A stretch of 64,000 bases of DNA from an uncultured bacterium (GTDB taxonomy: Bacteria; Auribacterota; Tritonobacteria; UBA1439), in the NCBI GenBank assembly GCA_964460305.1, contig CAYWRA010000002.1, positions 3,089 through 67,088 on the forward strand, given 5' to 3'. Position 1 is the first letter of the stretch. Each line of letters begins with the position of its first letter. Positions 30,521 to 63,251 of this stretch are shown in pieces. Under the pieces are notes generated by a model, which saw nothing but the letters and a program-made list of their open reading frames with translations, ran no database searches and was not told the origin of the DNA. Made by a program: the position numbers and the translations under genes.

Positions 30521-30579
30521 ATCCCAAATCCCAAACAATGAACGTTGCTTATCTATTGGGATTTGGGATTTGGGATTTC
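30519..30579. repeat. Heptamer-arm hairpin of family C (AAATCCC/GGGATTT) between aroA and aroC
   Basis: aaatcccaaatcccaaacaatgaacgttgcttatctattgggatttgggatttgggattt. Confidence 0.8.
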
Positions 30580-30599: not shown

Positions 30600-31739
30600 A
30601 TGCTAGGCAATACATTCGGTCGTATATTCAGGGTCACTACGTGCGGTGAATCGTATGGCGGGGGGCTCGCAACAATCGTGGATGGGGCGCCGGCGGGAAT
30701 AAAACTCACCAACGCCATGGTCCAGGAGGAGCTCGACAAGCGGAAGCCGGGTCAGAGCGAACTCGACTCGCCACGGAAAGAAACCGACATCGCCGAGATC
30801 TTCGCGGGGATCGGCCAGGAGGGGCTCACCACCGGCGCGCCGGTGGGGATCCTGGTGCGCAACGTCGATAAGCAGCCCATCCACGTCGAGCAGTACCGCC
30901 AAGCGAAACACCTATTCAGGCCCGGCCACGCGGAGTATACCTTCTTCGTGAAGTATGGCGAGTATTACGACTGGTGCGGGGCGGGCCGCGCGAGCGGGCG
31001 TGAGACCGTCGGAAGGGTCGCCGGGGGCGCGGTTGCGAAGCAGATCCTGGCGCGCGAGGACATCGAGGTGATCGCCTACGTCAAGGAGAGCTATGGCATC
31101 ACCGCGCGGGAGATGAGCTTCGAGGAGGTCAAAAAAAACTACCGTGTGAACCCTCTCAACTGCCCGGACCGCGATGCGGCGGAAAAAATGATCGCGAAAA
31201 TCCTTGAAATCAAGGACGCGGGGGACACCTGCGGCGGGGTGGTTGAGATCATCGCCCGTGGCGTTCCCGCGGGCCTCGGCGAGCCGGTGTTCGACAAGCT
31301 CTCCGCCACGATCGCCCACGGCCTCATGAGCATCGGGGCCGTGAAGGGCGTCGAGATCGGCGCCGGATTCGCCGTGGCGAAAATGAAAGGCTCCGAGTGC
31401 AACGATCCGCCCTACATGGAGAAGGACAGGGTGCGCTTTCGGACGAACAACGCCGGCGGTTTCATGGGGGGGATCGCCAACGGAGAGGATCTCGTCATCC
31501 GGATGGCAGTGAAGCCGACGCCCACGATATCGATAGAACAGGACTCGATAGACAAGCGCGTGATGAAACCGGCCAAGCTCGCCGCGATCACGCGGCGCGA
31601 CGCCACGATCTGCCCGCGGATTTACCCGGTCGCCGAGGCGATGGTCCGGATCGCCATCCTGGACGCGCTCTACATGTGGCGGGCATGGCAGGGAGTGCAG
31701 AATCTGGAATTGAGAAGACCAACGACGAATGACAAATGA
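30600..31739 (+). CDS. aroC: Chorismate synthase
   Basis: The product begins MLGNTFGRIFRVTTCGESYGG (compare [20 protein letters not shown]). Confidence 0.8.
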   Translation: MLGNTFGRIFRVTTCGESYGGGLATIVDGAPAGIKLTNAMVQEELDKRKPGQSELDSPRKETDIAEIFAGIGQEGLTTGAPVGILVRNVDKQPIHVEQYRQAKHLFRPGHAEYTFFVKYGEYYDWCGAGRASGRETVGRVAGGAVAKQILAREDIEVIAYVKESYGITAREMSFEEVKKNYRVNPLNCPDRDAAEKMIAKILEIKDAGDTCGGVVEIIARGVPAGLGEPVFDKLSATIAHGLMSIGAVKGVEIGAGFAVAKMKGSECNDPPYMEKDRVRFRTNNAGGFMGGIANGEDLVIRMAVKPTPTISIEQDSIDKRVMKPAKLAAITRRDATICPRIYPVAEAMVRIAILDALYMWRAWQGVQNLELRRPTTNDK

Positions 31740-31818
31740 CAAAATTCAAATGACAAAACACAATGAGGTTTTGTCATCTTGCCATTTGTAATTCATTTGT
31801 CATTTGGTATTTGTCATT
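31726..31818 (+). repeat. Repeat family B (AAATGAC/GTCATTT heptamer arms with a gacaaaacacaatgaggttttgtc core hairpin), copy B2
   Basis: Other copies lie at 41704-41790, 46918-46985 (-), 49330-49420 and 53600-53690. A degenerate copy lies at 26868-26975. Confidence 0.8.
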
Positions 31819-36876: not shown

Positions 36877-36965
36877 AAAATCCCAAATCCCAAACTCCAA
36901 AACCCAAAGAATCTGGCGCCCTATACGCATCGTTATTGGGTTTTGGAGTTTGGGATTTGGGATTT
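36877..36965. repeat. Family C long perfect hairpin (28-bp stems of AAATCCC-type heptamers)
   Basis: aaaatcccaaatcccaaactccaaaacccaa-N29-ttgggttttggagtttgggatttgggattt. It lies between convergent genes. Confidence 0.85.
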
Positions 36966-37817: not shown

Positions 37818-38145
37818 TATCACCACCTCCTCGAACGGATAAACCCGCAACCGGTAGTATTGTGGTACGCCTCCCCCGCGCCAACGGTTCAACTCCGTTC
37901 CAGCATTGTTATCATTGTACGGCAGGGACCTCCTTCCGCGCAAGAGCGAACTTCGGGGGGTGTAGCCCCATTTTGTCTCCAATGAAACCACATCCCGTCC
38001 CAAAGGGATCCCTTCGGGAAAGGGACCCCTTTGGAGGAGGCCACTGAGAAGGATAAATCCAAGATCAATTTCAACCACGCCCCACGCCTAACGCCGTCAC
38101 GCCCATTCGCCGCTTGGGATTTGGGATTTGCCTTACGCATTCAGG

Positions 38146-41556: not shown

Positions 41557-41739
41557 GTTGTGGGAGCATTATAACACAACGTGCGCATGCGCCCGCCCGC
41601 GTTGGGAATTTGAACCATCTCTGGAAATGACGAATACCCCGCCTAACAACCGGCCTCGTCCCAAAGGGATCCCTTCGGGAAAGAGGCCCCTTTGGGGCGG
41701 GCAGGCAAATGACAAATGTCAAAACACAATGAGGTTTTG

Positions 41740-43344
41740 TCATTTGGTCATTTGTAATTCATTTGTCATTTGCGCTTTGGTATTTGTCATTATTTTGCCC
41801 CTGCACGCATCGCGATGCTGGACGAGCAGCGAATCGTCCAGGTATACCGGGTTCAGGCGCGCGGCCTTCTCATACGCCTCGATCGCCCTGCCGTACTCCC
41901 CCCTGGCCTCATAGACCATGCCGATGCCTATATACACGTTGGCCGAGTAAACGGCGTCGCGGGTCAGGCCCATCGCCCGATTGAATTCCCGGAGCGCCTC
42001 GTCATACCTGCCGGTCATGCGGTAGACGTTTGCAAGATTGTTGCGGGCGGAGGGAAAATCAGATCTGAGATTCACCGCCTGCATCAGCATCTCCTCCGCC
42101 TCCTCGTAACGGCCCCGTCGCATGTATACGATCCCAAGATTGTTGTAGGCATCGGCGCTTTCAGGGCTGTGTGCGATGACCGCCTCCCACAGCGTCGCGC
42201 TGTCACGCCAAACGGTATTCCGCGCCATCGTAAGGACGGCAAAAAGTGTGACGACCGCGCAGACAGCGGCAGCCCCCAGGCGGAAGCGAGGCCGCAGGAG
42301 ACCCGCCGCCGCGGCGTGCCCGCAGAGGAGACAAAGGGCGGCGCTTGGGAGATAGAGATACCGGTCGGCCTTTATCATGTTCACCGGGATGATCTGGAGC
42401 ACGGGTATGAGCGATACCGCGCCCCAGAAAAAGCAGAATGAGAACAGTCCCTTGCCCCGGCGCCTCGCGACCGCCGCAATGCACAGAGTAATTATCGCAA
42501 CAAGCGGGAAAAGGCACCGGATCTCCGTCGCCCGGGAGGGTAACTCCACCAGATAGAGAGAGGAGAGGTCGACGGGAAGGACAAGCATCCTGATGTAATC
42601 GCCCAGCACGACGCACATCGCGCGCATCGTGCCGTAGATGCTCCCGCCATGGTAGACAAAGCGCAAGTCTCTATGCGGATCCAGGAATATGGTGGCGATT
42701 GCGATGGGCAGAAGTGGCAGCGCGTAGGGGAACTTGTGCGGTATACTCCGCCCCAGGCCGATCCGCCGGCCATTACCGAGAACGTCGTATAGGATGAGCG
42801 CCAGAGGGAGTGTGATCATCAACGGTTTGGAACAGATGGTACAGAGGTAGAAACAGACGCTCAGGGAGAATAGCCCTCCCCCCCGTCTCTCCCGGCTTCG
42901 GACGTATGCCAGGAACGAGAGGAGATAAAAGAGCATTCCCAGGCCGTCCTTTCTGCTCGAGAGCCAGGCGACCGATTCCGCGTGCAACGGGTGTACCGCA
43001 AAGAGCGCCGCTGCCGCAAGGGCCGCCTCCACCTTGCCTATCATCTCTCCGCAGAGGAGGAAAAAGACGAGCACGACGAGCGCATAGATGAGCAGATCGG
43101 TTATGTGATACCCCACCGGGTTGAGTCTCCAGAAGAGATAATCGAGGCTATGGGAGATCACCGGCAGGGGGGGATAGCTTAAGTGATAATTCTTGATGAC
43201 GTGGGGGATGTCGAGCGTGCGGATGGCCTTGTTCCTGACGATGAGATGCTCATCGTCCCAATTGGTAAAATGATTGCCGAGAATGTTGGCGTAGACCACC
43301 AGTACCAGGGCAATCAGGCATAAAATCGCTATCCATGTCCTCAC
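41740..43344 (-). CDS. Polytopic membrane protein (PMT/TMTC-like glycosyltransferase fold) with C-terminal TPR repeats
   Basis: About 11 TM helices are predicted. The product has the TPR segments AEAYNNLGIVYMRRGRYEEAEEM and RNNLANVYRMTGRYDEA. The last ~15 codons read through a family B repeat. Confidence 0.5.
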   Translation of the reverse strand: MRTWIAILCLIALVLVVYANILGNHFTNWDDEHLIVRNKAIRTLDIPHVIKNYHLSYPPLPVISHSLDYLFWRLNPVGYHITDLLIYALVVLVFFLLCGEMIGKVEAALAAAALFAVHPLHAESVAWLSSRKDGLGMLFYLLSFLAYVRSRERRGGGLFSLSVCFYLCTICSKPLMITLPLALILYDVLGNGRRIGLGRSIPHKFPYALPLLPIAIATIFLDPHRDLRFVYHGGSIYGTMRAMCVVLGDYIRMLVLPVDLSSLYLVELPSRATEIRCLFPLVAIITLCIAAVARRRGKGLFSFCFFWGAVSLIPVLQIIPVNMIKADRYLYLPSAALCLLCGHAAAAGLLRPRFRLGAAAVCAVVTLFAVLTMARNTVWRDSATLWEAVIAHSPESADAYNNLGIVYMRRGRYEEAEEMLMQAVNLRSDFPSARNNLANVYRMTGRYDEALREFNRAMGLTRDAVYSANVYIGIGMVYEARGEYGRAIEAYEKAARLNPVYLDDSLLVQHRDACRGKIMTNTKAQMTNELQMTK

Positions 43345-49026: not shown

Positions 49027-49332
49027 ATGATGAAAGAGTTTTTGAAGAAGGGGTTGCTCGTGGGGCTCGGTGCGGCGGAGTTCACGCGGGAGACGCTCGC
49101 GAAAACCATTGTAGAGCTCGAGAAGAAAGGCGAGGTCAGCAAGGACGAGGCCAAGAAAATCATGGCTTCGTTCTCGAAGGTTGCCCGGAAGAGGCGCAAG
49201 GAGCTTGAGACGGGCCTGGAAAAGGCATTCGCGTCGCTCCTCGGGAAAACCCGCATCGCCACCGCCGACAGGCTCGAAGAGGTCGAGAAGCGGCTTAAGA
49301 ATCTGGAGAAAAAACTCAAGACCAAGAAATAA
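49027..49332 (+). CDS. Phasin-family (PHA granule-associated) small protein
   Basis: The product has MMKEFLKKGLLVGLGAAEFTRETLAKTIVELEKKGEVS and a Lys/Glu-rich coiled coil. A strong GGAAGGAGGG ribosome-binding site is present. Confidence 0.55.
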   Translation: MMKEFLKKGLLVGLGAAEFTRETLAKTIVELEKKGEVSKDEAKKIMASFSKVARKRRKELETGLEKAFASLLGKTRIATADRLEEVEKRLKNLEKKLKTKK

Positions 49333-49420
49333 TGACAATGTCAAATGACAGATGACAAAACACAATGAGTTTTTGTCATCGGGGCATTTGTAATTCATTT
49401 GTCATTGGGTATTTGTCATT
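49330..49420 (+). repeat. Repeat family B, copy B5
   Basis: aatgacaatgtcaaatgacagatgacaaaacacaatgagtttttgtcat...tttgtcattgggtatttgtcattt. Confidence 0.8.
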
Positions 49421-49429
49421 TATGCAACG

Positions 49430-51112: not shown

Positions 51113-51306
51113 CCACAGCCGAAATCTTTCAAACCACGGATTACACAAGATTAACACATGATTTATTTCGATCGAATTCTCGTGCGAATCTTGTGTATTC
51201 TCGTGGTTGCATTTCTTTTACTCTTTGTAACGACAATGTTACCTTTGGTACTCTTTGTGAACCTGTCAGACTTGACGTTTATGCTCGTGGCAAAGGGGGT
51301 GGTCTG

Positions 51307-52209
51307 ATGCGAACGATGGCGATAGGCGATTTATTTTTTCATGCCGCATGCGCCGCGCTCATCGCCTTCGGCATTGTCGCGTTCTCGATCGCTTCGCTCC
51401 ATCCAGCATGGGGGGTGCTCGCAGTGCCGGCGCTCGCCGTGTATGCCGCGTTGGCATTGCGGCGTCCCATGAGGCGGAAAAGACTCGCACAACAGCCCAT
51501 GCCCCTTCCGTGGAGGGATGTGTTGTTCAGGGAGGTGCGTTTCTACCGCGACCTCGATCTCAAGGGCCGCGAGCGCTTCGAACGGAACGCGCGCTATTTC
51601 CTCGCCGAGCATGAGATCGAAGGAGTGGCGGGGGTGGAGATTACCGATGAGATCCGCCTGCTGATTGCCGCCGGGGCCGCGGTGCTTCTTCATGGGCAGC
51701 CGGAGTGGGAGCTGCCGCGGCGGCACACAATTCTCGTGTATCCCGGCGGATTCGACGATAAATTCAGGTGCACGAAACGCGGACCGTTCCTCGGCCGCAC
51801 CTACGGGCAAGGGCCGGTCATCATTGCGCTGGACGCGCTACTCAATGGCTGGCGCGTTCCGGGCGGCGACAACGTCGCCCTGCATGAATTCGCCCATCTG
51901 CTGGACCTGCGGTGCGCCCGCGCCGATGGAGTGCCGCGGATGTTGAACCCGGCGGCCACTGGAGCATGGCTCGCGCTGATCCATCGCGAGATGATGAAGG
52001 TTGAGGCGCATCGCTCGGTGCTGCGCGCCTACGCCTCCGAGAACGAGGCCGAGTTCTTCGCGGTGGCGGTCGAGCATTTTTTCGAGCGGCCGGTCGAGCT
52101 GAAAGAACGCCACCCCGAGCTCTACGCGGCGCTGGCGCAGTTTTTCAATCAAGACCCCGCGGCAGGGCAGCAAATGGTCAGTCTCGGTAGGGTAGCCCCC
52201 CCTCCCTAA
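51307..52209 (+). CDS. M90-family (MtfA-like) zinc metallopeptidase with N-terminal TM segments
   Basis: The product has the HExxH motif NVALHEFAHLLD and an MtfA-like downstream region. An AAGGGGG ribosome-binding site is present. Confidence 0.6.
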   Translation: MRTMAIGDLFFHAACAALIAFGIVAFSIASLHPAWGVLAVPALAVYAALALRRPMRRKRLAQQPMPLPWRDVLFREVRFYRDLDLKGRERFERNARYFLAEHEIEGVAGVEITDEIRLLIAAGAAVLLHGQPEWELPRRHTILVYPGGFDDKFRCTKRGPFLGRTYGQGPVIIALDALLNGWRVPGGDNVALHEFAHLLDLRCARADGVPRMLNPAATGAWLALIHREMMKVEAHRSVLRAYASENEAEFFAVAVEHFFERPVELKERHPELYAALAQFFNQDPAAGQQMVSLGRVAPPP

Positions 52210-52257: not shown

Positions 52258-53604
52258 ATGCGAAAGATCAAAATTCCAGCATGCATGCTAGTTTTTGTGA
52301 TGCTTCTTGTTGAGTCTCTACAGGCCGAGTGGGTCACGGACAAGAAGGTGGATGAGACGCTCAAACGCGTGGCGGCCTTCGCTCGCTGCGAGAAGGAACT
52401 CGCGACGTCAAAATCCGAAAGCCAGCGGCAGGCGCTCCGGGGACAGCTCGATCGGATGAAGAGAGATCTCACGCGCGAACGGATCGACTACGGGAGCTTC
52501 ATCGGCATCCGCGGCCAGGCTGAGGACATCCAGGGAGACTGGTTCTTCGATGGGCAGTGGATCGCGAACAGCGTCTACTGGAGGATATTCCGCCTCTTCA
52601 ACCTGCCGAGGAACCTGCGCCGCCTAGTGGGCCGTCCCGCTCGCGCGAGCGATCTGACGGCAAATGGCGGAATCCCCGACTCGGCGTTCTTCTTCAATAC
52701 CGACTTACGCGCCATCACGCCCGGCATCTTAAGGGAGCAGGACGAGGCCATACGCCCGCGCGGGAAAATCACGATCACACGCAAGAAGCAGGAGGGCCAG
52801 TCCAAGGGCTTCTATGGCATGGACAGCCGCGGCGTCGAGTACATCATTATCGTCGATCCGCCGGGGATGGAAGAGCAGGTCACGTCAGCGGAAGTGATCG
52901 GCTCCACGCTAATGCGGATGGCAGGCTATAACGTCGCCGGGAGCGCCATCGTCACGATAGAAGGGACTGCCAATCCCGAGTTCGACGGCCGGCGCGGAGT
53001 GGCCACGAAACTCGTCAAGGGGTATAAGGGCCACTGGACTTACCGCGCGTTCGAGGACCGGCGGGAGATGCGCGCGGGCATGGTCTTCGCCGCCTGGATC
53101 CACAACACCGACTGGCTGGACCACAACACCGGGATCAGCGTGATCGAGGTTGACGGAATCCCTCTCACCCGCTACTACGTCTTCGACTTCGGTGGATCGC
53201 TCGGTAGCTGGAACATACGCACCAAGGAGCCGCGGGACGGCTGGGAGCATTACGTCAGCTTCCACGAGTTTTTCCTCTGGCCGATTGCGCGTCCCCTCGA
53301 ACTTGCTGGGCTTGTCAGGAAACCGTACGCCGCCAGCGGCGCTCAGTACAGCGAGGCCGTGGGTTACTTCGACAGCAACTTCCGCCCTGACCGCTACAGG
53401 CCGAACTATCCTAACATGGCCTGGGCGGAGATGACGGCCGAGGACGGCCGCTGGGCCGCGGGCGTGATCGCCGGCTACAGCGAGGAGCAGATCCGGACCG
53501 CCGTGGATCTCGCCCGCTACACTCGCGCCGAGGACGCTGATTACGTATATAAGACGCTGCTCGCAAGACGGCAGAGGATACTGGATCATTATAACCCGAA
53601 ATGA
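52258..53604 (+). CDS. Secreted hypothetical protein with protein-kinase-like catalytic signature
   Basis: A signal peptide is present. The product has WIHNTDWLDHN (an HxD...N catalytic-loop-like motif), followed ~25 aa later by DFGGS (a DFG-like motif). Confidence 0.35.
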   Translation: MRKIKIPACMLVFVMLLVESLQAEWVTDKKVDETLKRVAAFARCEKELATSKSESQRQALRGQLDRMKRDLTRERIDYGSFIGIRGQAEDIQGDWFFDGQWIANSVYWRIFRLFNLPRNLRRLVGRPARASDLTANGGIPDSAFFFNTDLRAITPGILREQDEAIRPRGKITITRKKQEGQSKGFYGMDSRGVEYIIIVDPPGMEEQVTSAEVIGSTLMRMAGYNVAGSAIVTIEGTANPEFDGRRGVATKLVKGYKGHWTYRAFEDRREMRAGMVFAAWIHNTDWLDHNTGISVIEVDGIPLTRYYVFDFGGSLGSWNIRTKEPRDGWEHYVSFHEFFLWPIARPLELAGLVRKPYAASGAQYSEAVGYFDSNFRPDRYRPNYPNMAWAEMTAEDGRWAAGVIAGYSEEQIRTAVDLARYTRAEDADYVYKTLLARRQRILDHYNPK

Positions 53605-53690
53605 CAAATGACGAAACACTATGAGGTTTTGACATTTGGTCATTTGTAATTCATTTGTCATTTGTGCTTTGTCATTTGTCATTTGTCATT
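53600..53690 (+). repeat. Repeat family B, copy B6, with four tandem TGTCATT heptamers
   Basis: aatgacaaatgacgaaacactatgaggttttgacat...tttgtcatttgtgctttgtcatttgtcatttgtcatt. Confidence 0.8.
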
Positions 53691-53718
53691 CCTGCTGTGG
53701 TTCATTTATGGTGAAAAA

Positions 53719-56700
53719 GTGAGCCTTTCGCTGGAAAAGCTCCTCAAGGTGCGACGGGCGGAGCAGCCGCTGCTCATGCTCATGGTCGGGACCATCTGCC
53801 TCTTCCAGTTCTGCCAGATTATCAACGAGAACTTCTCGGAGACGGTGTTCCTCAAGCGCTATGGCGGCGTGCGCTACCTCCCCACCACGTTTTTTTTCAA
53901 CTCCATCGTCTTCCTGGCCATCCTCACCATGCTCAACCGGGTGGTCGACCGCACCGCGCGGACCAAGCTCGTGTCGAACCTCCTGCTCGTATTCGCGGGA
54001 CTGCTCATCTGCATGAGATTCCTCATCCTCGTGCGCGCGCCCCTCACCTACCCCATCATCTACATCATGGTCAAGCAGATGAAGTACGTCTTCTTCATCG
54101 TCTTCTGGACGCTCACCACCGACGTCTATTCGACCCGCAAGGCGCGAAGAATATTCCCCATCATCGGCGGCGGCGCGGTCATGGGTACCATCGCCGGGAG
54201 CCTCCTCAACCGCCGGATCGCCGCCCTCACAGGGACCGACAATCTGGTGCTCTTTTCGAGCGCCGGCATGATCGTCTCATACGCGCTTGTGGGGCTCGGG
54301 AGGCGCCAGGTGGGCAGGCTCTCGCCCATAAGCTTCGCGCCGGCGGAAAGCGTCACGATGGCCTCGCTCGGAAAATTCCTCAAGCGGGAACTCGTTCAAC
54401 TCCGCGGCTCTTCGTTGCTAGGCTATCTCATGGCCCTCGCATTTCTACCCGGTATCGTCGCGCCGATGTTCGACTATATATTCGATTATCTCGCCAACGA
54501 GACTTACGGGTCCGAGGCGTCGCTGCTCGGCTTCTTCGGTGTCTTCAAGGGATCGTTCAACATACTCATCCTCGCTTGTCAGGTCGTCCTGGTGGGCGGC
54601 GTGTTCCGCCGATTCGGGATCGTCAACGTGCTCTTTTCGTATCCCATCGGATATCTGTTCGCGTTCGGCGGGCTCTATTTCGGTTTCCGGATGCCGTCTG
54701 CGGTCATCGGGAGGTCGGCCCTCGAGGTGATCGACGCCGCCTTCTACAAACCGGGCTCGCAGATGCTCTACAGCATTATCCCCGTGGAACTCCGCGGCCG
54801 GGTGAGCGCCCTCGTCCAGGGGGCTGTCCGCAGGTTGGGAGAGCTCGCGGGGAGCGGGCTGCTGGTGGTGCTGAAGGCGTTCGTTTCGCCGCTGAACCTC
54901 AACCTGGTCGGCCCGTTCTTCGCCATTATATGGGCTTTCTGCGACTACCGGTTGAAGCGCTCCTACTCCACGATCCTCTACCGGAGCCTGAGCGAAAAAC
55001 ACGTGAACTTTGCGGAGCTCGAGGGCCACGACCTCCGCTCTCTCATGACGGCCCGGACGGCCGACGTTCTCGCGAAAAACCTCGCAAGCCGGAAGGCGGC
55101 GACCGCGCTCATGGCGGCGAGGTTGCTCAGCCAATCGGGGATCAGCGGCTGGCCCGAGATGGTGTGCGCAGAGTCGGCCCGCAGGGAGCCGGCCCTACAG
55201 ATCGAAATGCTTAGAATTGTGGGGACGGGTCCGCCAGCCGAGGTGGTGCCGGCGTTGCTAGGGGTGTGCGACAGGATCCATGAGTCTGCGCGCGTGGAAC
55301 TCGCGATGCTCGTGAGGCGCATGGCGCCCGAGAAGGGAGTCGAGCTGTTTAGGAAGGGCTTGAAGAGCGGTGACCGCCGCCTCGTCGCCGAGTCCGTGCT
55401 CGGCCTCATGGCGGCGGGGGAACGGATCGATGCGGGATGGGTTCATGAGAAGCTCGATTCGGAACAGCCGGAGGAAGTGTGCTGCGCCCTCTATCTCCTG
55501 GGAGGGATCGGAGACCGTTCCGGGCTCGATCGGGTACGCGCCTTCGCGCGCGCGGTCGACCCTGCCGTGAGAGCGGAGTGCGCCCTGGCCCTCGGTAAGC
55601 TGGGGCTCAACGCCTCTTCGGACCATTGGCCCGCCCTCCTCGCCGACGGCGACACACGAGTCCGGCTCAAAGCGGTCGAGGGGCTGTCCGCGCTCCGCGC
55701 TCCCCAGGCGGTCTCCCTCGCGATCCCGCTCCTCGGCGACGAGGACAGGGCTGTGCGTGAGGCGGCGCGCGCGCTCATCGACAGCCAGGGAGAAACCGCA
55801 ATCCCAGTCCTTACACACGCGCTCCCGGAGGCCGGGTTTTTCGCGAGGAGGGCGCTGATCGGAATCCTCGACAACCTTGGCGTAAAAGAGCAGACCCTCC
55901 TCACGTTCATCGATACGAAGGTTCGCGATGGGTACCAGGCAGTCGCGAGAATGCGCGCGGTGGAGGGGATGCCGCCGGGCCGCTCCCGGGATGCGCTATC
56001 GCTCCTTCTCCGGGACCGATTGAGCGAGGCAACCGACGCCATCCTCCGGTTGCTCGCCGTGCTACTGAAGGGGAGTCGGGTGCAGTTCATCCTCGATAGC
56101 TCACACGATCGCGAGGAAGCGGTGCGGGAGCAGGCGCTCGAGGCGTTGGAGAACGTGCTCACAGCCGATCTCGCCAGGAGGCTCCTGCCACTCCTCGAAG
56201 ACCTCCCCCTGGAACTCAAGCTCGCCGCCGGTTCGCGATTCTATCCGCTTGACGAAATCGACCCATGCGGCATTTTTGAGGAAATGTTGGATTCCGGCAG
56301 CCGCCCCGATGCGCTATGCGGCCTCATGTGCATCGCCGAAGCGCATGAGCGGGGACAACCGCCCATCACCCCCGCTCTTGGGGACCGGGCCGCCAGGGAG
56401 ACCGAGAAGAGGAATATACAAGGAGATACGTCCGTGGAAAACCTAATGGAAAAAGTGCTAACCTTAAAAGGCGTCCCCATCTTCTCTAATCTGCGATTCA
56501 AGGAACTGCTCGCGATCGCCTCGATATCGAAGGAGGAGACCTTCCATGCCGGCGACGCCATCATCAAGCAAGGGGAACGCGGTTATACAATGTATATTAT
56601 CACCGCAGGGAGCGTGCGCATCGTCTCCTATGCCGGGAAGGAAGAAGTGCCGCTTGCGAAACTTGGCGCCAATGATTATTTCGGCGAAATGGCGCTCTTC

Positions 56701-56871
56701 GACGATTCCCCCCGTTCCGCCACCGCCATCGCCGATGGGGACGTTCGGGTGCTCGCGATACACAAGCGCGAATTCAGGGACATGCTCCGCGAATACCCGG
56801 GGGTCGCTATCATGATGTGCGAGGAGTTCTGCCGCCGCCTCCGAGTTACAATTGAGAAAGTTGGGGCATAG
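53719..56871 (+). CDS. Multidomain membrane protein with an N-terminal TLC/Npt-like 12-TM transporter domain, central HEAT/PBS-lyase repeats and a C-terminal cyclic-nucleotide-binding domain
   Basis: The TLC-like core is VFFIVFWTLTTDVYSTRKARRIFPIIGGGAVMGTIAGS. HEAT-like repeats include VRLKAVEGLSALRAPQAVSLAIPLLGDEDRAVREAA. The cNMP-binding signature is FGEMALFDDSPRSATAIA. The start site is uncertain because the ORF begins inside a family B repeat. It could be the GTG at 53719 or the ATG at 53776. Confidence 0.6.
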   Translation: MSLSLEKLLKVRRAEQPLLMLMVGTICLFQFCQIINENFSETVFLKRYGGVRYLPTTFFFNSIVFLAILTMLNRVVDRTARTKLVSNLLLVFAGLLICMRFLILVRAPLTYPIIYIMVKQMKYVFFIVFWTLTTDVYSTRKARRIFPIIGGGAVMGTIAGSLLNRRIAALTGTDNLVLFSSAGMIVSYALVGLGRRQVGRLSPISFAPAESVTMASLGKFLKRELVQLRGSSLLGYLMALAFLPGIVAPMFDYIFDYLANETYGSEASLLGFFGVFKGSFNILILACQVVLVGGVFRRFGIVNVLFSYPIGYLFAFGGLYFGFRMPSAVIGRSALEVIDAAFYKPGSQMLYSIIPVELRGRVSALVQGAVRRLGELAGSGLLVVLKAFVSPLNLNLVGPFFAIIWAFCDYRLKRSYSTILYRSLSEKHVNFAELEGHDLRSLMTARTADVLAKNLASRKAATALMAARLLSQSGISGWPEMVCAESARREPALQIEMLRIVGTGPPAEVVPALLGVCDRIHESARVELAMLVRRMAPEKGVELFRKGLKSGDRRLVAESVLGLMAAGERIDAGWVHEKLDSEQPEEVCCALYLLGGIGDRSGLDRVRAFARAVDPAVRAECALALGKLGLNASSDHWPALLADGDTRVRLKAVEGLSALRAPQAVSLAIPLLGDEDRAVREAARALIDSQGETAIPVLTHALPEAGFFARRALIGILDNLGVKEQTLLTFIDTKVRDGYQAVARMRAVEGMPPGRSRDALSLLLRDRLSEATDAILRLLAVLLKGSRVQFILDSSHDREEAVREQALEALENVLTADLARRLLPLLEDLPLELKLAAGSRFYPLDEIDPCGIFEEMLDSGSRPDALCGLMCIAEAHERGQPPITPALGDRAARETEKRNIQGDTSVENLMEKVLTLKGVPIFSNLRFKELLAIASISKEETFHAGDAIIKQGERGYTMYIITAGSVRIVSYAGKEEVPLAKLGANDYFGEMALFDDSPRSATAIADGDVRVLAIHKREFRDMLREYPGVAIMMCEEFCRRLRVTIEKVGA

Positions 56872-59037: not shown

Positions 59038-60073
59038 GACTCACATTCTAACACATTCCGCCGCGGGCCTGGTCAGCGAGTAGGTCAAATTAGATTATTC
59101 AGTAATGGCTCTTGCCGGATTTTTGTGCATATGTTGATAGAGGGACAATGCGCAACATATTATCAGGGGAAGAAATATCACCGAGCATGCTCTCCACATC
59201 TCCTCTCCCCTCCGATGGGGAGAGGCTGGGTGAGGGGTGATTTGAAAAAGACTGCATCTACACCCTCACCCGATAATTGTGAAGGTGTGAAATATCAACA
59301 CACTGTCAATTGCGAGCGGGGCGAAGCAATCTCGCTTCCGAGCAGTTGCGCACCTGCCGATTGGAAAAGGGGGGCTTCCGGGACGGCTATGCAGTTTTAT
59401 CTTGCGCGCGTCAAGGAAGATGGGTTTGGCTTTTGATGTTTTATCCCGCCGCAGTTTTGCTTCGACTGCATTTCCTGCCTTCCGAGATTCGTAGAATGAT
59501 GCGGATAATAGTGCGTACTTTCGTGAATAGTGCCCCCCCGCTCCACCCTTAACCCGGATTATTCACCTGATGGTCAGGAACAAGTATTCATCTGATGCGT
59601 AAAGCATGTCATTCCGGCGCAAGCCGGAATACAGATCCATAAGCCTTGACGCTGGATCCCTGCTTCCGCAAGGATGACAGGTTGTGAGTTTGATAAATAG
59701 ATCAGTTTACGGATGCGCTATGCCCGTGGATAACTCAAACAAGCCCCTATAGGAACCAATCTCCGTTAGAAAGCCCTTCTTAAGGTCTAACCCACCGAAA
59801 GGCGTCTAATTCTTTGTTTTGCAAGCCATTACGCAGGTCCGCTCCCAATTTTAGGCATGCCCAACATCCATTTTATATGGATGAAATGTGGATGATTTTC
59901 GAGGGTTGTGAAAATCAGGTGGTTGTCGGATAATATTGGTTTTTCTGAACAAAGGGGGATTCGTCGTATCATTGGCACAACACTCCTTATCCTCAGTGCG
60001 GTAATCTTAAGAGAGGGTGTTATTTCGATTGTTGTTTTGCTTCACGATGCAATCCAAAGGTGTCGTACAGAAT

Positions 60074-60245
60074 CGCTAGGAGTGTGTCCGAGTAATACGT
60101 TTTTTTGCCATTACTCGGACAGCACACAAAAATGGCCCATGTAACAAACTGCCGTACAGCATATTGCAAACATCAAATTTTGACTCTGTCTGAGTAATAC
60201 CCAAAATAGGCTGGTTTTAGCATTTCTCGGACAGGCTCCTAGGGT
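60074..60245 (-). mobile_element. ~175-bp MITE-like element, copy 2 (reverse complement of 12296-12472)
   Basis: The arms gctaggagtgtgtccgagtaatacg...attactcggacag and gtctgagtaataccc...ctcggacaggctcctagg are shared with copy 1. Confidence 0.6.
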
Positions 60246-60363
60246 GACATAAAAGTTGTAAAGTAAACATCATCTACTGGGGCGAAAAGGCAAGGTTAAC
60301 TAAGTGGCCTCGCTGCCATTGTATTTGCAACTAACCACAACATCTATTGATGGAGGTTAAATC

Positions 60364-60945
60364 GTGAAAAAAAAAGAATGGATAAAACTAGAAAATAGAA
60401 AAGAAGTGGTTGACAAAGTTGCAGAAATGGTCAAAACCGCACAAAGTGAAGTATACATCATTGGCCATAGTGCAAGATGGTTGAAGGAAAAATCATTTCA
60501 GGAAGCTATGGAGAGTGCTCGGAATGTGGCTGATGCAAAATTTTTGATTACATGTCCCGAAGATATTACAGATGCTATCTTAATCTCTTTAAAAGAGTTA
60601 AAGCAAAAAGGCATTGTCGACAAAATATTAAAAAGATCTTATGGGCGTATGAGAATTTGTCTGGTCGACGGGCGCAAAATTTTATTAGCACACACCTTAG
60701 ATTATAAAGATAAGAAAGGCAACACTTCTTTTGGTTTATATTTTGAAGATGATAATTTTGGACATTGGTTGTCAACAAGATTCACCGAGCTAGCTCAGGA
60801 TGCATATGATATAGACGACAGCAAATTTATTATTATGATAAAAAGCATTTACTATTCCATTAGGGCTCATTGGCTCGAATGGATAATCATTGCGGCAATA
60901 GGTGCAGCATTATCAAGTGGTTTCTCCAGCTTATTCAAATTATGA
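60364..60945 (+). CDS. Low-GC island gene 1: uncharacterised protein with C-terminal TM anchor
   Basis: The ORF has a GTG start with a GGAGG ribosome-binding site. Its AT-rich codon usage contrasts with the rest of the window. The C-terminus is HWLEWIIIAAIGAALSSGFSSLF. It shares the pattern ...hIIxxSxxhL...GxxxhxLxxGRxxhL with island gene 2. Confidence 0.45.
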   Translation: MKKKEWIKLENRKEVVDKVAEMVKTAQSEVYIIGHSARWLKEKSFQEAMESARNVADAKFLITCPEDITDAILISLKELKQKGIVDKILKRSYGRMRICLVDGRKILLAHTLDYKDKKGNTSFGLYFEDDNFGHWLSTRFTELAQDAYDIDDSKFIIMIKSIYYSIRAHWLEWIIIAAIGAALSSGFSSLFKL

Positions 60946-60990
60946 AAAGTGAATAGATTATATCCAATGTGATAACCAGACGGTATTATC

Positions 60991-61554
60991 ATGAACTTAA
61001 AAATCATTAATAAAAAAAATACTATCTACTTGGATGCAATTGAAATCATAAAGAACAGCGAGAATAAACTTTTTATAATCGAAAGGAGTTCAAGCCTATT
61101 ATTAGGGGCGAGGAAAAATCCAATTGAAAAAAGCTATTTAACCTCACTAAGCAAATACATTCATGAATTACAAAATGGCTCCGGGAAGATGTTATTCTAC
61201 CTTTACAATTGCGTAGAAACGAAAGGCGAAATGTTCAAAAGAAACATTTCTTTTAACAAAGTCACTGATAATTTTTACAATCTTCAAAAAATACAGGAAA
61301 AGTGCGATGGAAGTTTCATAATAAAATCATTCAAAGAACCGGGTAATCCCTTGGTGATAGGAGACCGTGAGTTCAGCCTATGGTTATCCAATCCACTCGG
61401 CAATATTCTATGCATTAATATCGAAAATAAAAAATACACGGATGGTATTTTCGAATCATACAAACATTACGCGTTACATTTACCCACCAAGTCAATAGAA
61501 GCATTAACCTGTGAACTTAAACCTAAAGAAGCACATACGCATTTCTTTGATTAA
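60991..61554 (+). CDS. Low-GC island gene 2: uncharacterised soluble protein, distant paralogue of gene 1
   Basis: The ORF is AT-rich. The segments LFIIERSSSLLLG and PLVIGDREFSLWLSNP parallel gene 1. Confidence 0.45.
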   Translation: MNLKIINKKNTIYLDAIEIIKNSENKLFIIERSSSLLLGARKNPIEKSYLTSLSKYIHELQNGSGKMLFYLYNCVETKGEMFKRNISFNKVTDNFYNLQKIQEKCDGSFIIKSFKEPGNPLVIGDREFSLWLSNPLGNILCINIENKKYTDGIFESYKHYALHLPTKSIEALTCELKPKEAHTHFFD

Positions 61555-61605
61555 CTAAGAGCCATCCCTAAATGACGATAGTCCGCCTAAAAATAATCAA
61601 GGTAC

Positions 61606-62139
61606 ATGCCAACTCCAGAAAAAATGATCGACCTCAATGAACTAAACAGTGGTTTGCCTGCGATATCCCCTGCATTCGGAAGTTGTCTAGCTGAGGCGGG
61701 TGGCGTCTGCCTTGAATCTCAGGGCCATCAATTTGACAAGGAAATGTTGGTCCAAGGTACGCACCAGAAATCGTTCAGGCTCCGTTGGCCTCAGATCACG
61801 CAACAAGTGCTCAATTGTTGGAACGATCTTGAAAGCGCGACAGAACATGGCGCTATGGGCGTTGCTATTTTACTGATACGCAAACTCGCCGGTTATTCAG
61901 TAGTGCAACGTTCCCGCAAGGGGACGGGATTCGACTACTGGCTTGGACACGATGATGGCATTCCATTTCAAAATATGGCACGATTGGAGGTATCTGGCAT
62001 CCGTAAGGGAGACGAACGGACGATCAAGACAAGAGTCCGTCAAAAACTTAAGCAGGTCGCGAAGTCCGATGGCTCTCTTCCTGCATACATAGTGGTCGTC
62101 GAGTTCGGAACACCTATTTCAGAGGTAGCTGAGAAATGA
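61606..62139 (+). CDS. Island gene 3: uncharacterised protein with possible nuclease-like core
   Basis: The product has GFDYWLGHDDG...ARLEVSGIRKGDE, which loosely resembles a D...(D/E)xK-type signature. Its stop overlaps the gene 4 start (ATGA). Confidence 0.4.
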   Translation: MPTPEKMIDLNELNSGLPAISPAFGSCLAEAGGVCLESQGHQFDKEMLVQGTHQKSFRLRWPQITQQVLNCWNDLESATEHGAMGVAILLIRKLAGYSVVQRSRKGTGFDYWLGHDDGIPFQNMARLEVSGIRKGDERTIKTRVRQKLKQVAKSDGSLPAYIVVVEFGTPISEVAEK

Positions 62140-63251
62140 CCTTGCTCCAAGAACTACACAACGAGGCGATGAATTTTGCCGAGCTCGCCGTCTCTGAGCG
62201 CATCCGGGGGAAATATGACCATGCCGAAACCTTATTTCGCTCAGCACTTGAGAAGGAGCTCGCCGCAGTTAAAGCTTGCTCTGACCTTGGCAATCCCGAG
62301 CCGACGTTTTCAGTACTTCATCGCAGTGCTGCAACGCTGGCACTTGACTGTGGAAACCCGCGATTAGCAGAGCAATTGGCAACACGTGCTCTTTCCGCCA
62401 CTCCCCCACCAGAGATGGCCGACGAATTACGGGACCTTCTAGAAACGATCAACTTCCAAAGGCATTTGCAATTACGCGGCGTCTCACTCTCCGACGACGA
62501 ACTCCAAATGTCCATCGCTGGGAACGCGGTGGGATTCGGGATGGTTCACGGCAATGAATTTCTTGAGCGAATTAGCCATGCATCGAAGATCTTCTATCGC
62601 ATCGTGGAACGGAGGGAGCGAAAGCCGTTCCGGGAGAAGGGCCGATTGAAAAAAGGAGTGAAAGATGAGTACGAGCTTTACATGTCCGTACCGCGCGCAG
62701 CTAGCTTCGCTGTAACACTCAAAGTTGGAAGGCCAACTGGGCAGATGAAAAGCGCCGGACTCCTAGGGACGACGGACATCATTGACGAATTCATGAGCCT
62801 GATCGACTTGGTTAACCGTAAAAAGGAAGAGGAGATCCACAAGCGCATCGGGGATCAAGCTTACTACAGGAATTTTATCGCGCTCTCGCGCCTCCTAGCT
62901 CCTGACGGAGAGAATGTCAATCTTGTCGGCTTCACGACATTCCGGGGGAATAAAGAGGTTCGCATCTCGATGACGCGATCCCGAGATGAGATTCCTCCTC
63001 CAAAACCTCCTGCAACCGAGGAGTTGACCAATGTTGTCACAGTCGAAGGGCAGCTCCTCTTTGCTGACGCAACACATGGTAGAAGCGGAGAAATCAAAGT
63101 TGTAAACGAGGCAAGTAATGCATCCTACCTCGTCAAGGTCCCAGAAGGAATGATGGCGGACATTGTGAAGCCACTGTGGGGTTCAAAGGTGATAGTTTCG
63201 GGGGTGCAACACGGGCGCCATATCGAACTAGAAGATATCCGTGAAACATGA
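62136..63251 (+). CDS. Island gene 4: uncharacterised protein (helical N-terminal half, beta-rich C-terminal half)
   Basis: The ORF is translationally coupled to gene 3. No motif was recognised. Confidence 0.4.
   Translation: MTLLQELHNEAMNFAELAVSERIRGKYDHAETLFRSALEKELAAVKACSDLGNPEPTFSVLHRSAATLALDCGNPRLAEQLATRALSATPPPEMADELRDLLETINFQRHLQLRGVSLSDDELQMSIAGNAVGFGMVHGNEFLERISHASKIFYRIVERRERKPFREKGRLKKGVKDEYELYMSVPRAASFAVTLKVGRPTGQMKSAGLLGTTDIIDEFMSLIDLVNRKKEEEIHKRIGDQAYYRNFIALSRLLAPDGENVNLVGFTTFRGNKEVRISMTRSRDEIPPPKPPATEELTNVVTVEGQLLFADATHGRSGEIKVVNEASNASYLVKVPEGMMADIVKPLWGSKVIVSGVQHGRHIELEDIRET

What the first reader, a model, noticed from the sequence alone, without database searches (positions are those of the whole stretch)
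53719..56871. Giant TLC-like transporter fused to HEAT repeats and a cyclic-nucleotide-binding domain
One ORF of about 1050 aa combines a 12-TM Npt/TLC-like domain, a long HEAT/PBS-lyase-type repeat array, and a C-terminal cNMP-binding domain (FGEMALFDDSPRSATAIA). This architecture implies second-messenger control of nucleotide transport or a receptor role. The gene start lies inside a family B repeat. The repeat may therefore supply or disrupt its promoter or ribosome-binding site.
Basis: partly seen in the sequence, partly recalled or inferred. Interest (0 to 1): 0.6.

Follow-up and report, generated by a model that had tools for sequence, protein, structure and literature searches.

The report
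NTT-like transporter fused to HEAT and cNMP domains
This is an intact 1050-residue membrane protein that joins a divergent ATP/ADP-translocase-like transporter domain to a HEAT-repeat arm and a cyclic-nucleotide sensor; the architecture was described in 2017 and is widespread in bacteria, but its function has never been tested.

Summary
One uninterrupted gene (GTG 53719 to 56871, + strand, 1050 aa) is collinear with about 1050-aa homologues from Candidatus Auribacterota MAGs.

**Domains**
- The cNMP-binding domain (80.6 bits, intact phosphate-binding cassette) and the HEAT repeats are clear.
- The N-terminal 12-helix domain misses Pfam's TLC cutoff on its own (13.6 bits against 21).
- It is still tied to the NTT/TLC family. 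Profiles built from it and its relatives hit only the two solved NTT1 ATP/ADP translocators in the PDB. The AlphaFold model's best membrane matches are those same structures.

**Novelty.** The NTT-HEAT-cNBD fusion was described by Major, Embley and Williams (2017). I found 4967 cluster representatives related to the N-terminal domain, most about 1000-1100 aa long. This is a divergent new member of a known but uncharacterised kind.

**The repeat claim is only partly right.** The about 95-nt heptamer-built palindromic element ends about 28 nt before the start codon. It is absent from the closest relative.

**Side finding.** Across the clade the gene sits in a conserved string after a membrane-anchored M90 peptidase and a signal-peptide-bearing protein. 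That protein has no Pfam family, and its model folds like atypical kinases (CtkA, Fam20, HipA, CotH).

The parts
53719..56871 (+). Complete gene (GTG start, 1050 codons plus stop) for the NTT-like/HEAT/cNBD fusion protein
   Evidence: ORF list. The start agrees with 12 homologue N-termini. Homologues are 59-85% identical over 100% of the length.
53719..54963 (+). N-terminal membrane domain (residues 1-415): about 12 TM helices, MFS fold, divergent NTT/TLC-type
   Evidence: Hydropathy and AF2 helices. K+R count 23 inside and 5 outside. Pfam TLC 13.6 bits, below cutoff. A clade HMM matches TLC-positive fusion proteins at 63-94 bits. Profiles A4 and A8 hit only PDB NTT1 entries 9j3n and 9j3j. Foldseek: AtNTT1 TM-score 0.72 on the target.
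55036..56418 (+). Cytoplasmic HEAT/ARM-like alpha-solenoid (residues about 440-900, about 27 helices)
   Evidence: Pfam HEAT_2 E 4.4e-14 and HEAT E 3.7e-6. AF2 secondary structure is all-helical, pLDDT mostly 80-90. PDB sequence hits to alphaRep designed HEAT proteins.
56431..56868 (+). C-terminal cyclic-nucleotide-binding domain (residues about 905-1050)
   Evidence: Pfam cNMP_binding 80.6 bits. PDB hits to PKG, PKA-R and CRP. AF2 shows a beta-roll plus C-helices.
56680..56733 (+). Phosphate-binding cassette FGEMALFDDSPRSATAIA, with G989-E990 and R999-S1000
   Evidence: Translation. These residues are invariant in 13 clade members. They align with CRP's G-E and R-S cAMP contacts (the contact roles are from established knowledge of CRP).
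53710..53714 (+). SD-like GGTGA, 4 nt upstream of the GTG start
   Evidence: Read directly from the sequence. Function is inferred.
53599..53691 (+). About 95-nt imperfect palindromic element built of GACAAAT/ATTTGTC heptamers ('family B'). It fills the spacer between the upstream gene's stop (53602-53604) and this gene.
   Evidence: TRF. Inverted repeats. Four copies aligned with 58 invariant columns. RNA hairpin -37.5 kcal/mol, z -3.3. Absent at the same site in L004.
52258..53604 (+). Conserved upstream partner gene: 448-aa protein with a signal-peptide-like N-terminus and an atypical protein-kinase-like fold. It has no Pfam or NCBIfam family.
51193..52209 (+). Conserved upstream gene: Peptidase_M90 (MtfA-like) with two N-terminal hydrophobic helices
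   Evidence: Pfam 208 bits. Synteny. The helices are read from the translation.

Best explanation
The gene encodes an inner-membrane protein of the published NTT-HEAT-cNBD fusion family.

Shown:
- A 12-helix MFS-fold domain, distantly but specifically related to ATP/ADP translocases (NTT/TLC, TC 2.A.12).
- This is followed in one polypeptide by an about 460-residue HEAT solenoid and a complete cyclic-nucleotide-binding domain with an intact phosphate-binding cassette.
- The predicted topology places both termini, and therefore the HEAT arm and the sensor, in the cytoplasm.

Inferred:
- The membrane domain is a transporter, most likely for a nucleotide or a related phosphorylated or anionic metabolite.
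- cAMP binds the C-terminal domain. cAMP is favoured over cGMP only by the CRP-like R-S pair.
- Binding repositions the domain's C-helix. Through the HEAT arm, which acts as a rigid or elastic connector or a docking platform, this releases or imposes a block on the alternating-access cycle.
- In short, it is a second-messenger-gated transporter, comparable in logic to CNBD-regulated channels and to SLC9C1.
For: - Intact and collinear with homologues.
- cNMP_binding 80.6 bits, HEAT_2 E 4.4e-14.
- PBC residues G989, E990, R999 and S1000 are invariant in the clade and align with CRP's G-E and R-S.
- An HMM of the N-terminal domain built from the Auribacterota clade alone matches, end to end, the membrane domains of P0025, P0023 and P0024 at 94, 72 and 63 bits. 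Those proteins pass Pfam TLC at 50-57 bits.
- A profile of the clade plus only relatives that are themselves below the TLC cutoff hits C. pneumoniae NTT1 (9j3n, E 1.5e-12, profile positions 8-432) and AtNTT1 (9j3j, E 7.4e-7). It hits no other transporter in the PDB. The broader profile gives E 5.8e-28 and 4.3e-16.
- AF2 model pLDDT 81. Foldseek's only transporter-domain hits in the top 50 are AtNTT1 (TM-score 0.72 on the target, 478 columns) and CpNTT1 (0.64).
- K+R 23 inside and 5 outside gives an N-in/C-in topology.
- The same three-domain architecture dominates the relatives: 94 of 147 representatives have the CNB domain. Of 45 long representatives, 45 carry cNMP_binding, 35 HEAT_2 and 23 TLC.
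- The architecture and the regulatory hypothesis are already published (PMC5381601).
- CNB domains also occur fused to other transporter families among the hits (Na+/H+ exchanger, MMPL, anion symporters). This makes cNMP control of transport a recurrent design.
Against: - No transport, substrate or ligand-binding data exist for any member of the fusion family in the literature I could search.
- This sequence alone fails Pfam TLC (13.6 bits against 21) and finds nothing in the PDB. A five-sequence profile of the clade alone also finds nothing. The link to NTTs is therefore transitive and at superfamily level, and substrate cannot be transferred with confidence.
- I could not check the ATP-contacting residues of the solved NTTs, because the paper is not in the library.
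- Model pTM is 0.46, so the inter-domain arrangement, and with it the coupling path, is not predicted.
- No nucleotide cyclase appeared among the 25 other ORFs of the window that I scanned.
- There is no conserved gene neighbourhood across phyla.
Confidence: 0.55

Rival explanations
1. cNMP-regulated MFS transporter for a substrate that is not a nucleotide. The NTT similarity reflects common ancestry only, and the fusion clade has changed specificity.
For: The protein and most clade members score as well or better against the generic MFS_1 model as against TLC: MFS_1 best E 2e-7 against TLC best E 0.0038 among 13 members. 18 of 45 relatives match MFS_1. Identity to solved NTTs is only 12-15%. 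Canonical NTTs are much longer in the loops (chain residues 16-509 against profile positions 8-432).
Against: Profile searches of the whole PDB return only NTT1 proteins and none of the many other solved MFS transporters. Foldseek ranks the NTTs first among transporter folds.
Confidence: 0.2
2. Membrane-anchored cNMP receptor or scaffold (a 'transceptor'). The membrane domain no longer transports. It anchors or senses, and the HEAT solenoid recruits partner proteins in a cNMP-dependent way.
For: The HEAT region is long (about 460 residues) and well conserved. HEAT repeats are classic protein-protein interaction modules (established knowledge; also argued in PMC5381601). The gene sits in a conserved operon with two other proteins in this clade.
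Against: The membrane domain is the most conserved part of the protein within the clade. Charged and polar intramembrane and loop motifs are invariant (E15, NENF, KQMKY, FW..D, RKARR, RRFG, IIP..RGR), as expected for a working transporter. All 12 helices are retained.
Confidence: 0.15
3. ATP exporter for an extracytoplasmic kinase. The NTT-like domain runs as an ATP(out)/ADP(in) exchanger under cAMP control, and supplies ATP to the exported atypical kinase encoded immediately upstream.
Against: The linkage is confined to one clade. More distant homologues of the kinase-like protein (P0210, P0212, P0225) have no NTT-like neighbour. Distant NTT-HEAT-cNBD genes have no such kinase neighbour. Export of the 448-aa protein is judged by eye only; no signal-peptide predictor was run. 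The kinase activity and its substrate are unknown.
Confidence: 0.1
4. Artefact: two or three separate genes joined by a sequencing or assembly error or a frameshift.
For: None found. Major et al. do report lineages where the cNBD is a separate downstream gene.
Against: A single frame with no stops. At least 12 independent assemblies from ENA, JGI, NCBI and Logan give the same 1046-1055-aa protein, aligned end to end.
Confidence: 0.01

Closest known systems
NTT-HEAT-cNBD fusion proteins (Major, Embley & Williams 2017, Genome Biol Evol 9:480; PMC5381601)
   Same: Same order of three domains in one polypeptide (NTT-like membrane domain, HEAT repeats PF13646/PF02985, cNMP-binding PF00027). The length is also the same, about 1000-1100 aa. 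The membrane domain is homologous end to end to members that pass Pfam TLC. Function is equally unknown.
   Different: This Auribacterota clade is divergent: about 20-23% identity to TLC-positive members, and individually below the Pfam TLC cutoff. The phylum is not in the taxon table quoted from that paper. It has a clade-specific operon with an M90 peptidase and an exported kinase-like protein.
Canonical nucleotide transporters NTT1/Npt1 (AtNTT1, PDB 9j3j/9j3l; Chlamydia pneumoniae NTT1, PDB 9j3n; Pfam TLC PF03219, TIGR00769)
   Same: 12-TM MFS fold. Motifs are shared across the alignment, such as FW..A....AK/RR, RK/RFG and IPL/IIP. They are the best structural matches among transporters.
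   Different: Only 12-15% identity. Canonical NTTs are single-domain, with longer loops (about 490 aligned residues against about 425). They act as ATP/ADP or nucleotide exchangers in plastids and obligate intracellular bacteria, whereas the host here appears to be a free-living anaerobe lineage. They carry no regulatory tail.
CNBD-regulated membrane transport proteins (SLC9C1 sperm Na+/H+ exchanger; HCN, SthK and MloK1 channels)
   Same: A C-terminal cytoplasmic CNB domain is attached to a membrane transport module. The query's CNB domain matches theirs structurally. The phosphate-binding cassette is intact.
   Different: The membrane modules are unrelated. Here a long HEAT solenoid, rather than a short C-linker, separates the sensor from the membrane domain.
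For the upstream partner: atypical protein-kinase-like enzymes CtkA (H. pylori, secreted), Fam20 secretory-pathway kinases, CotH, HipA, PI4K type II
   Different: There is no detectable sequence similarity: no Pfam or NCBIfam family, and no PDB hit with a 41-sequence profile. It has an extra N-terminal helical hairpin and a C-terminal helical region.

Membership tests
NTT/TLC nucleotide transporters (Pfam PF03219, TIGR00769, TC 2.A.12) | The sequence reaches the curated profile threshold (PF03219 gathering score, 21 bits) | tested here: not met
   13.6 bits, E 0.03, over residues 99-163 only. 10 of 13 clade members give sub-threshold hits, best E 0.0038. There is no TIGR00769 hit for the window protein.
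NTT/TLC nucleotide transporters (Pfam PF03219, TIGR00769, TC 2.A.12) | Homology of the whole membrane domain to bona fide NTTs, specific among MFS families | tested here: met
   The link is transitive. A clade-only HMM matches TLC-positive P0025, P0023 and P0024 at 63-94 bits, end to end. Profile A8, which has no TLC-positive member, hits 9j3n at E 1.5e-12 and 9j3j at E 7.4e-7, and no other transporter. Profile A4 gives E 5.8e-28. The single sequence and the five-sequence clade profile find nothing.
NTT/TLC nucleotide transporters (Pfam PF03219, TIGR00769, TC 2.A.12) | 12-TM MFS fold resembling solved NTT structures | tested here: met
   AF2 model (pLDDT 81). Foldseek: 9j3l_A TM-score 0.72 on the target and 9j3n_A 0.64, the only transporter-domain hits in the top 50. 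About 12 hydrophobic helices with an N-in/C-in charge bias.
NTT/TLC nucleotide transporters (Pfam PF03219, TIGR00769, TC 2.A.12) | Conservation of the nucleotide-contacting residues seen in the ATP/ADP-bound NTT1 structures | not tested
   The structure paper is not in the searchable library. The fold search returns no residue alignment.
NTT/TLC nucleotide transporters (Pfam PF03219, TIGR00769, TC 2.A.12) | Nucleotide counter-exchange activity | not testable with these tools
   Needs proteoliposome or E. coli uptake assays.
NTT-HEAT-cNBD fusion clade (Major et al. 2017) | NTT-like domain, HEAT repeats (PF13646/PF02985) and cNBD (PF00027), in this order, in one polypeptide | tested here: met
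NTT-HEAT-cNBD fusion clade (Major et al. 2017) | Full-length homology to fusion proteins whose N-terminal domain passes Pfam TLC | tested here: met
   P0024 and P0025 align over 93-99% of the query. They carry TLC at 50-57 bits plus HEAT_2 plus cNMP_binding.
NTT-HEAT-cNBD fusion clade (Major et al. 2017) | Monophyly with the fusion clade in an NTT-domain phylogeny | not tested
   No tree was built. Canonical NTT sequences were available only as PDB alignment fragments.
Cyclic-nucleotide-binding domain (PF00027) | Profile match above threshold, and a beta-roll plus hinge/lid helices | tested here: met
   80.6 bits against a 27.5-bit cutoff. AF2 shows strands 938-1015 and helices 1016-1049. Foldseek TM-score 0.80-0.87 on isolated CNB domains.
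Cyclic-nucleotide-binding domain (PF00027) | Phosphate-binding-cassette residues that contact the ribose 2'-OH and the cyclic phosphate (G-E ... R-[ST/A]) | tested here: met
   G989, E990, R999 and S1000 are invariant in 13 clade members. They align with CRP's G-E and R-S.
Cyclic-nucleotide-binding domain (PF00027) | Actual cAMP/cGMP binding and selectivity | not testable with these tools
   Needs ITC, DRaCALA or fluorescence assays on residues 905-1050.
HEAT-repeat proteins (PF13646, PF02985) | Tandem helical-hairpin repeats that form an alpha-solenoid | tested here: met
   HEAT_2 53 bits in 2 stretches and HEAT 27.1 bits. About 27 consecutive helices over residues 445-917. The PBS-lyase subtype (PF03130) is not supported (E 0.49).
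Protein-kinase-like atypical kinases (for the 448-aa neighbour) | PKL fold with catalytic Lys, D-x4-N catalytic loop and DFG-type metal-binding Asp | tested here: met
   [not shown]

The most novel reading that the evidence does not exclude
In Candidatus Auribacterota the NTT-like/HEAT/cNBD protein is part of a conserved module with an exported atypical kinase that belongs to no described family, and with a membrane-anchored M90 peptidase. The most novel reading not excluded is that the NTT-like domain works in the export direction, as a cAMP-gated ATP(out)/ADP(in) exchanger that energises phosphorylation in the periplasm or on the cell surface. That would be a bacterial counterpart of ATP import into the ER/Golgi feeding Fam20-type secretory kinases. 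It would also give the first functional handle on the large, uncharacterised NTT-HEAT-cNBD family.
Probability: 0.1. Interest if true: 0.8.

Novelty: new member of a known kind. Interest (0 to 1): 0.35.

Why it matters
NTT transporters are best known as the 'energy-parasitism' ATP importers of chlamydiae, rickettsiae, microsporidia and plastids. The fused NTT-HEAT-cNBD branch is far larger: thousands of 50%-identity clusters, found in free-living bacteria. It has no assigned function.

This locus adds a divergent, well-conserved member from a candidate phylum. More usefully, it adds a conserved operon context, an exported kinase-like protein and an M90 peptidase, which suggests a concrete and testable role. 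By itself the architecture is already published, so the finding confirms and extends earlier work rather than opening a new category.

Tried and rejected
- Single-sequence phmmer of the N-terminal 440 aa against the PDB found no hits. A five-sequence profile of the clade alone also found none. Similarity to NTTs appears only once intermediates are added.
The clade alignment found only Auribacterota-type MAGs, one of them labelled Chlamydiota.
- The afdb50 fold library was unavailable.
- I searched for the NTT1 cryo-EM paper to obtain the substrate-contact residues. It is not in the library, so residue-level substrate inference was dropped.
- I looked for a conserved neighbourhood in distant fusion-family members (Latescibacterota, Myxococcota and others) and found none. 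The 272-aa gene that overlaps the start in L021 is unrelated to the 448-aa protein.
- I tested whether distant homologues of the kinase-like protein sit next to an NTT-like gene. They do not.
- An Rfam scan of 53000-54200 for a known RNA element in the repeat or leader found nothing.
- Promoter and terminator scan: the TTGTCA-18-TATGGT match at 53683-53712 is at chance frequency. There is no T-tract terminator after the repeat hairpin.
- I considered that GGTGA after the repeat is a shared SD supplied by the element. This is rejected: in the 49.3-kb copy the GGTGA contains the start codon itself.
- The frameshift or fusion artefact is rejected.
Full report
**1. The observation**

The six-frame ORF list shows one long + strand ORF, 53662(TTG)..56871 (1069 aa), with no competing long ORF that looks like a gene. 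Twelve full-length homologues of 1046-1055 aa, 59-85% identical and covering 100% of the query, all begin at the residue encoded by GTG 53719. An SD-like GGTGA lies 4 nt upstream. The alignment is gap-free apart from 1-3-residue indels, so there is no hidden frameshift.

**2. Domains**

Pfam gives these results:
- cNMP_binding at residues 940-1026: 80.6 bits, E 8.3e-23.
- HEAT_2: E 4.4e-14, two stretches.
- HEAT: E 3.7e-6.
- HEAT_PBS: not significant (E 0.49).
- TLC: 13.6 bits against a 21-bit cutoff, over residues 99-163.
- MFS_1: E 0.06.

Across 13 clade members, 10 give sub-threshold TLC hits and 8 give MFS_1 hits.

**3. Is the membrane domain NTT-like?**

Three independent lines say yes, at the superfamily level.

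(a) An HMM built only from the N-terminal 440 residues of the Auribacterota clade matches, end to end, the membrane domains of distant fusion proteins P0025, P0023 and P0024 at 94, 72 and 63 bits. Those proteins pass Pfam TLC at 50-57 bits and hit TIGR00769.

(b) I built a profile from the clade plus only relatives that are themselves below the TLC cutoff. It hits exactly two kinds of solved transporter in the whole PDB: Chlamydia pneumoniae NTT1 (9j3n, E 1.5e-12, profile positions 8-432 against chain residues 16-509) and Arabidopsis NTT1 (9j3j, E 7.4e-7). It hits no other MFS transporter. Adding TLC-positive members raises this to E 5.8e-28 and 4.3e-16.

(c) An AlphaFold2 model of the full protein (mean pLDDT 81) was searched with Foldseek against the PDB. 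Apart from CNB domains, it returns AtNTT1 (9j3l_A, TM-score 0.72 on the target, 478 columns) and CpNTT1 (9j3n_A, 0.64). These are the only transporter-domain matches in the top 50.

The caveat is that the single sequence and a five-sequence clade profile find nothing in the PDB. Identity to the solved NTTs is 12-15%.

Hydropathy and the model's helices give about 12 TM segments in residues 14-414. Loops assigned to the inside carry 23 K+R and loops on the outside carry 5, so both termini, and hence the HEAT and CNB parts, are cytoplasmic.

**4. The tail**

Residues about 440-900 form about 27 consecutive helices, an alpha-solenoid. The CNB domain has the beta-roll and C-terminal helices. Its phosphate-binding cassette, FGEMALFDDSPRSATAIA (56680-56733), is invariant in the clade. 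The binding site looks functional. The R-S pair resembles cAMP binders such as CRP, but sequence alone does not settle selectivity.

**5. How common, and is it known?**

An exhaustive phmmer search of 1.84 billion cluster representatives with the N-terminal 445 residues found 4967 relatives at E<=1e-3 and 1722 at E<=1e-10. Most of the top 150 are 1000-1100 aa long.
- Of 147 of these representatives, 94 carry the CNB domain by a clade-derived HMM.
- Of 45 long representatives scanned with Pfam, 45 have cNMP_binding, 35 HEAT_2, 23 TLC and 18 MFS_1.

Major, Embley and Williams (2017) already described NTT-HEAT and NTT-HEAT-cNBD fusions as a monophyletic family that is widely distributed in bacteria and also present in oomycetes. 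They proposed cAMP control of ATP transport and noted that none had been characterised (PMC5381601). Full-text searches found only two later papers that mention the fusion, both phylogenetic or review work.

The architecture is therefore known. This protein is a divergent member from Candidatus Auribacterota, also called Aureabacteria (source names; phylum background).

**6. The repeat**

The spacer between the upstream gene's stop (53602-53604) and this gene is filled by an about 95-nt imperfect palindrome. It is built of GACAAAT heptamers on the left and ATTTGTC heptamers on the right.
- Four copies occur in the window, at about 31.72, 41.70, 49.33 and 53.60 kb, with 58 invariant columns. 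A 15-mer probe gave 13 matches against 0.07 expected.
- As RNA it folds into a long hairpin (-37.5 kcal/mol, z -3.3) with no T-tract after it. It matches no Rfam family.
- The last clean heptamer ends at about 53691. The start codon is 28 nt further on.
- The 85%-identical relative L004 has a different 151-nt spacer without the element, and none of the nine loci fetched by then carries the probe.
- In L001-L003 the upstream gene overlaps this gene by 4 nt.

The element is therefore a lineage-specific, MITE- or REP-like insertion at an operon junction. It is not a conserved regulatory part. Its heptamers contain TTGTCA, and one promoter-like match (53683-53712) uses it, but promoter-like matches in the region are at chance frequency (3 found against 1.3 +/- 1.4 expected).

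**7. Surroundings**

In every Auribacterota-clade locus with enough sequence, the gene is preceded by the same two genes: a Peptidase_M90 (window 51193-52209, 208 bits) and an about 450-aa protein (52258-53604). UbiB usually lies before them.

The 448-aa protein has no Pfam, NCBIfam or PDB sequence match.
- Its AlphaFold model is confident (pLDDT 89, pTM 0.88).
- A Lys (K177), a [H/N]-x-D-x4-N loop (283-290) and a D-F-G (310-312) are conserved in 37-39 of 41 homologues.
- Nearly all homologues start with a signal-peptide-like or lipobox-like segment. One distant homologue overlaps an Omp85 gene.

This suggests an exported kinase.

The linkage to the NTT-like gene is confined to this clade. One distant fusion gene does have a Hanks-type kinase gene directly upstream.

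**8. Mechanism**

Best supported is a cNMP-gated NTT-type transporter.
- Shown: the architecture, the topology, and an intact ligand site.
- Inferred: the substrate class, the identity of the ligand, and coupling through the HEAT arm.

Model pTM is 0.46, so the inter-domain geometry is not predicted.

The rivals are a non-nucleotide MFS transporter, a non-transporting receptor or scaffold, and the more novel ATP-export-for-an-exported-kinase reading. The operon suggests this last one but does not establish it.

**9. Verdict**

The repeat detail is inexact. The gene is a new, divergent member of a known and functionally uncharacterised kind. The most interesting new element is the conserved pairing with an exported kinase-like protein that belongs to no described family.

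Noticed in passing
[not shown]
   Followed up: yes
window 51193-52209 (+): Peptidase_M90 (MtfA-like, 208 bits) preceded by two hydrophobic helices and an RRPMRRKR stretch, which suggests a membrane-anchored, cytoplasm-facing M90 peptidase. The true start is probably the internal Met near residue 39, since homologues are 286-301 aa. It always lies upstream of the kinase-like gene in this clade.
   Followed up: partly
window 31724-31818, 41705-41791, 49331-49421, 53599-53691: Four copies of an about 95-nt palindromic element made of GACAAAT/ATTTGTC heptamers. All are in the same orientation and in short intergenic spacers, for example between chorismate synthase and shikimate dehydrogenase, and within about 10 nt of the UbiB start. 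The element is absent from the orthologous spacer of an 85%-identical relative, so it is mobile or recently spread.
   Followed up: partly
window 30519-30578, 36878-36965, 38075-38130: A second heptamer-based inverted-repeat family, (AAATCCC)n ... (TTGGGAT)n, also in intergenic spacers. One copy lies between EPSP synthase and chorismate synthase.
   Followed up: no
window 60001-62000 (ORFs 60364-63251): G+C drops to 38% against 51-64% elsewhere in the window. The four consecutive + strand ORFs here have no Pfam match, apart from a sub-threshold TrmB-like hit. This may be a horizontally acquired island.
   Followed up: no
L006 4011-5984 and 6001-9243: In a distant, TLC-positive NTT-HEAT-cNBD locus (P0025), a 657-aa Hanks-type Ser/Thr kinase gene ends 17 nt before the fusion gene. 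This is a second, independent kinase adjacency.
   Followed up: no
L019 4216-5427 and 5414-7129: A 571-aa distant homologue of the kinase-like protein (P0225) overlaps an upstream Omp85-family gene by 14 nt. This fits an envelope location for the family.
   Followed up: no
proteins P0031, P0033, P0034, P0035, P0036: cNMP-binding domains closely related to this one are also fused to other transporter families: MMPL/RND-like, Na+/H+ exchanger, and Na-sulphate/citrate-type symporters. cNMP-gated transport appears to be a recurrent bacterial design.
   Followed up: no
L011 (JBAXOY010000102.1): A MAG labelled Chlamydiota carries the same M90, kinase-like, fusion-gene string at 64-66% identity to the window. 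Either the bin is mislabelled or the clade reaches beyond Auribacterota.
   Followed up: no
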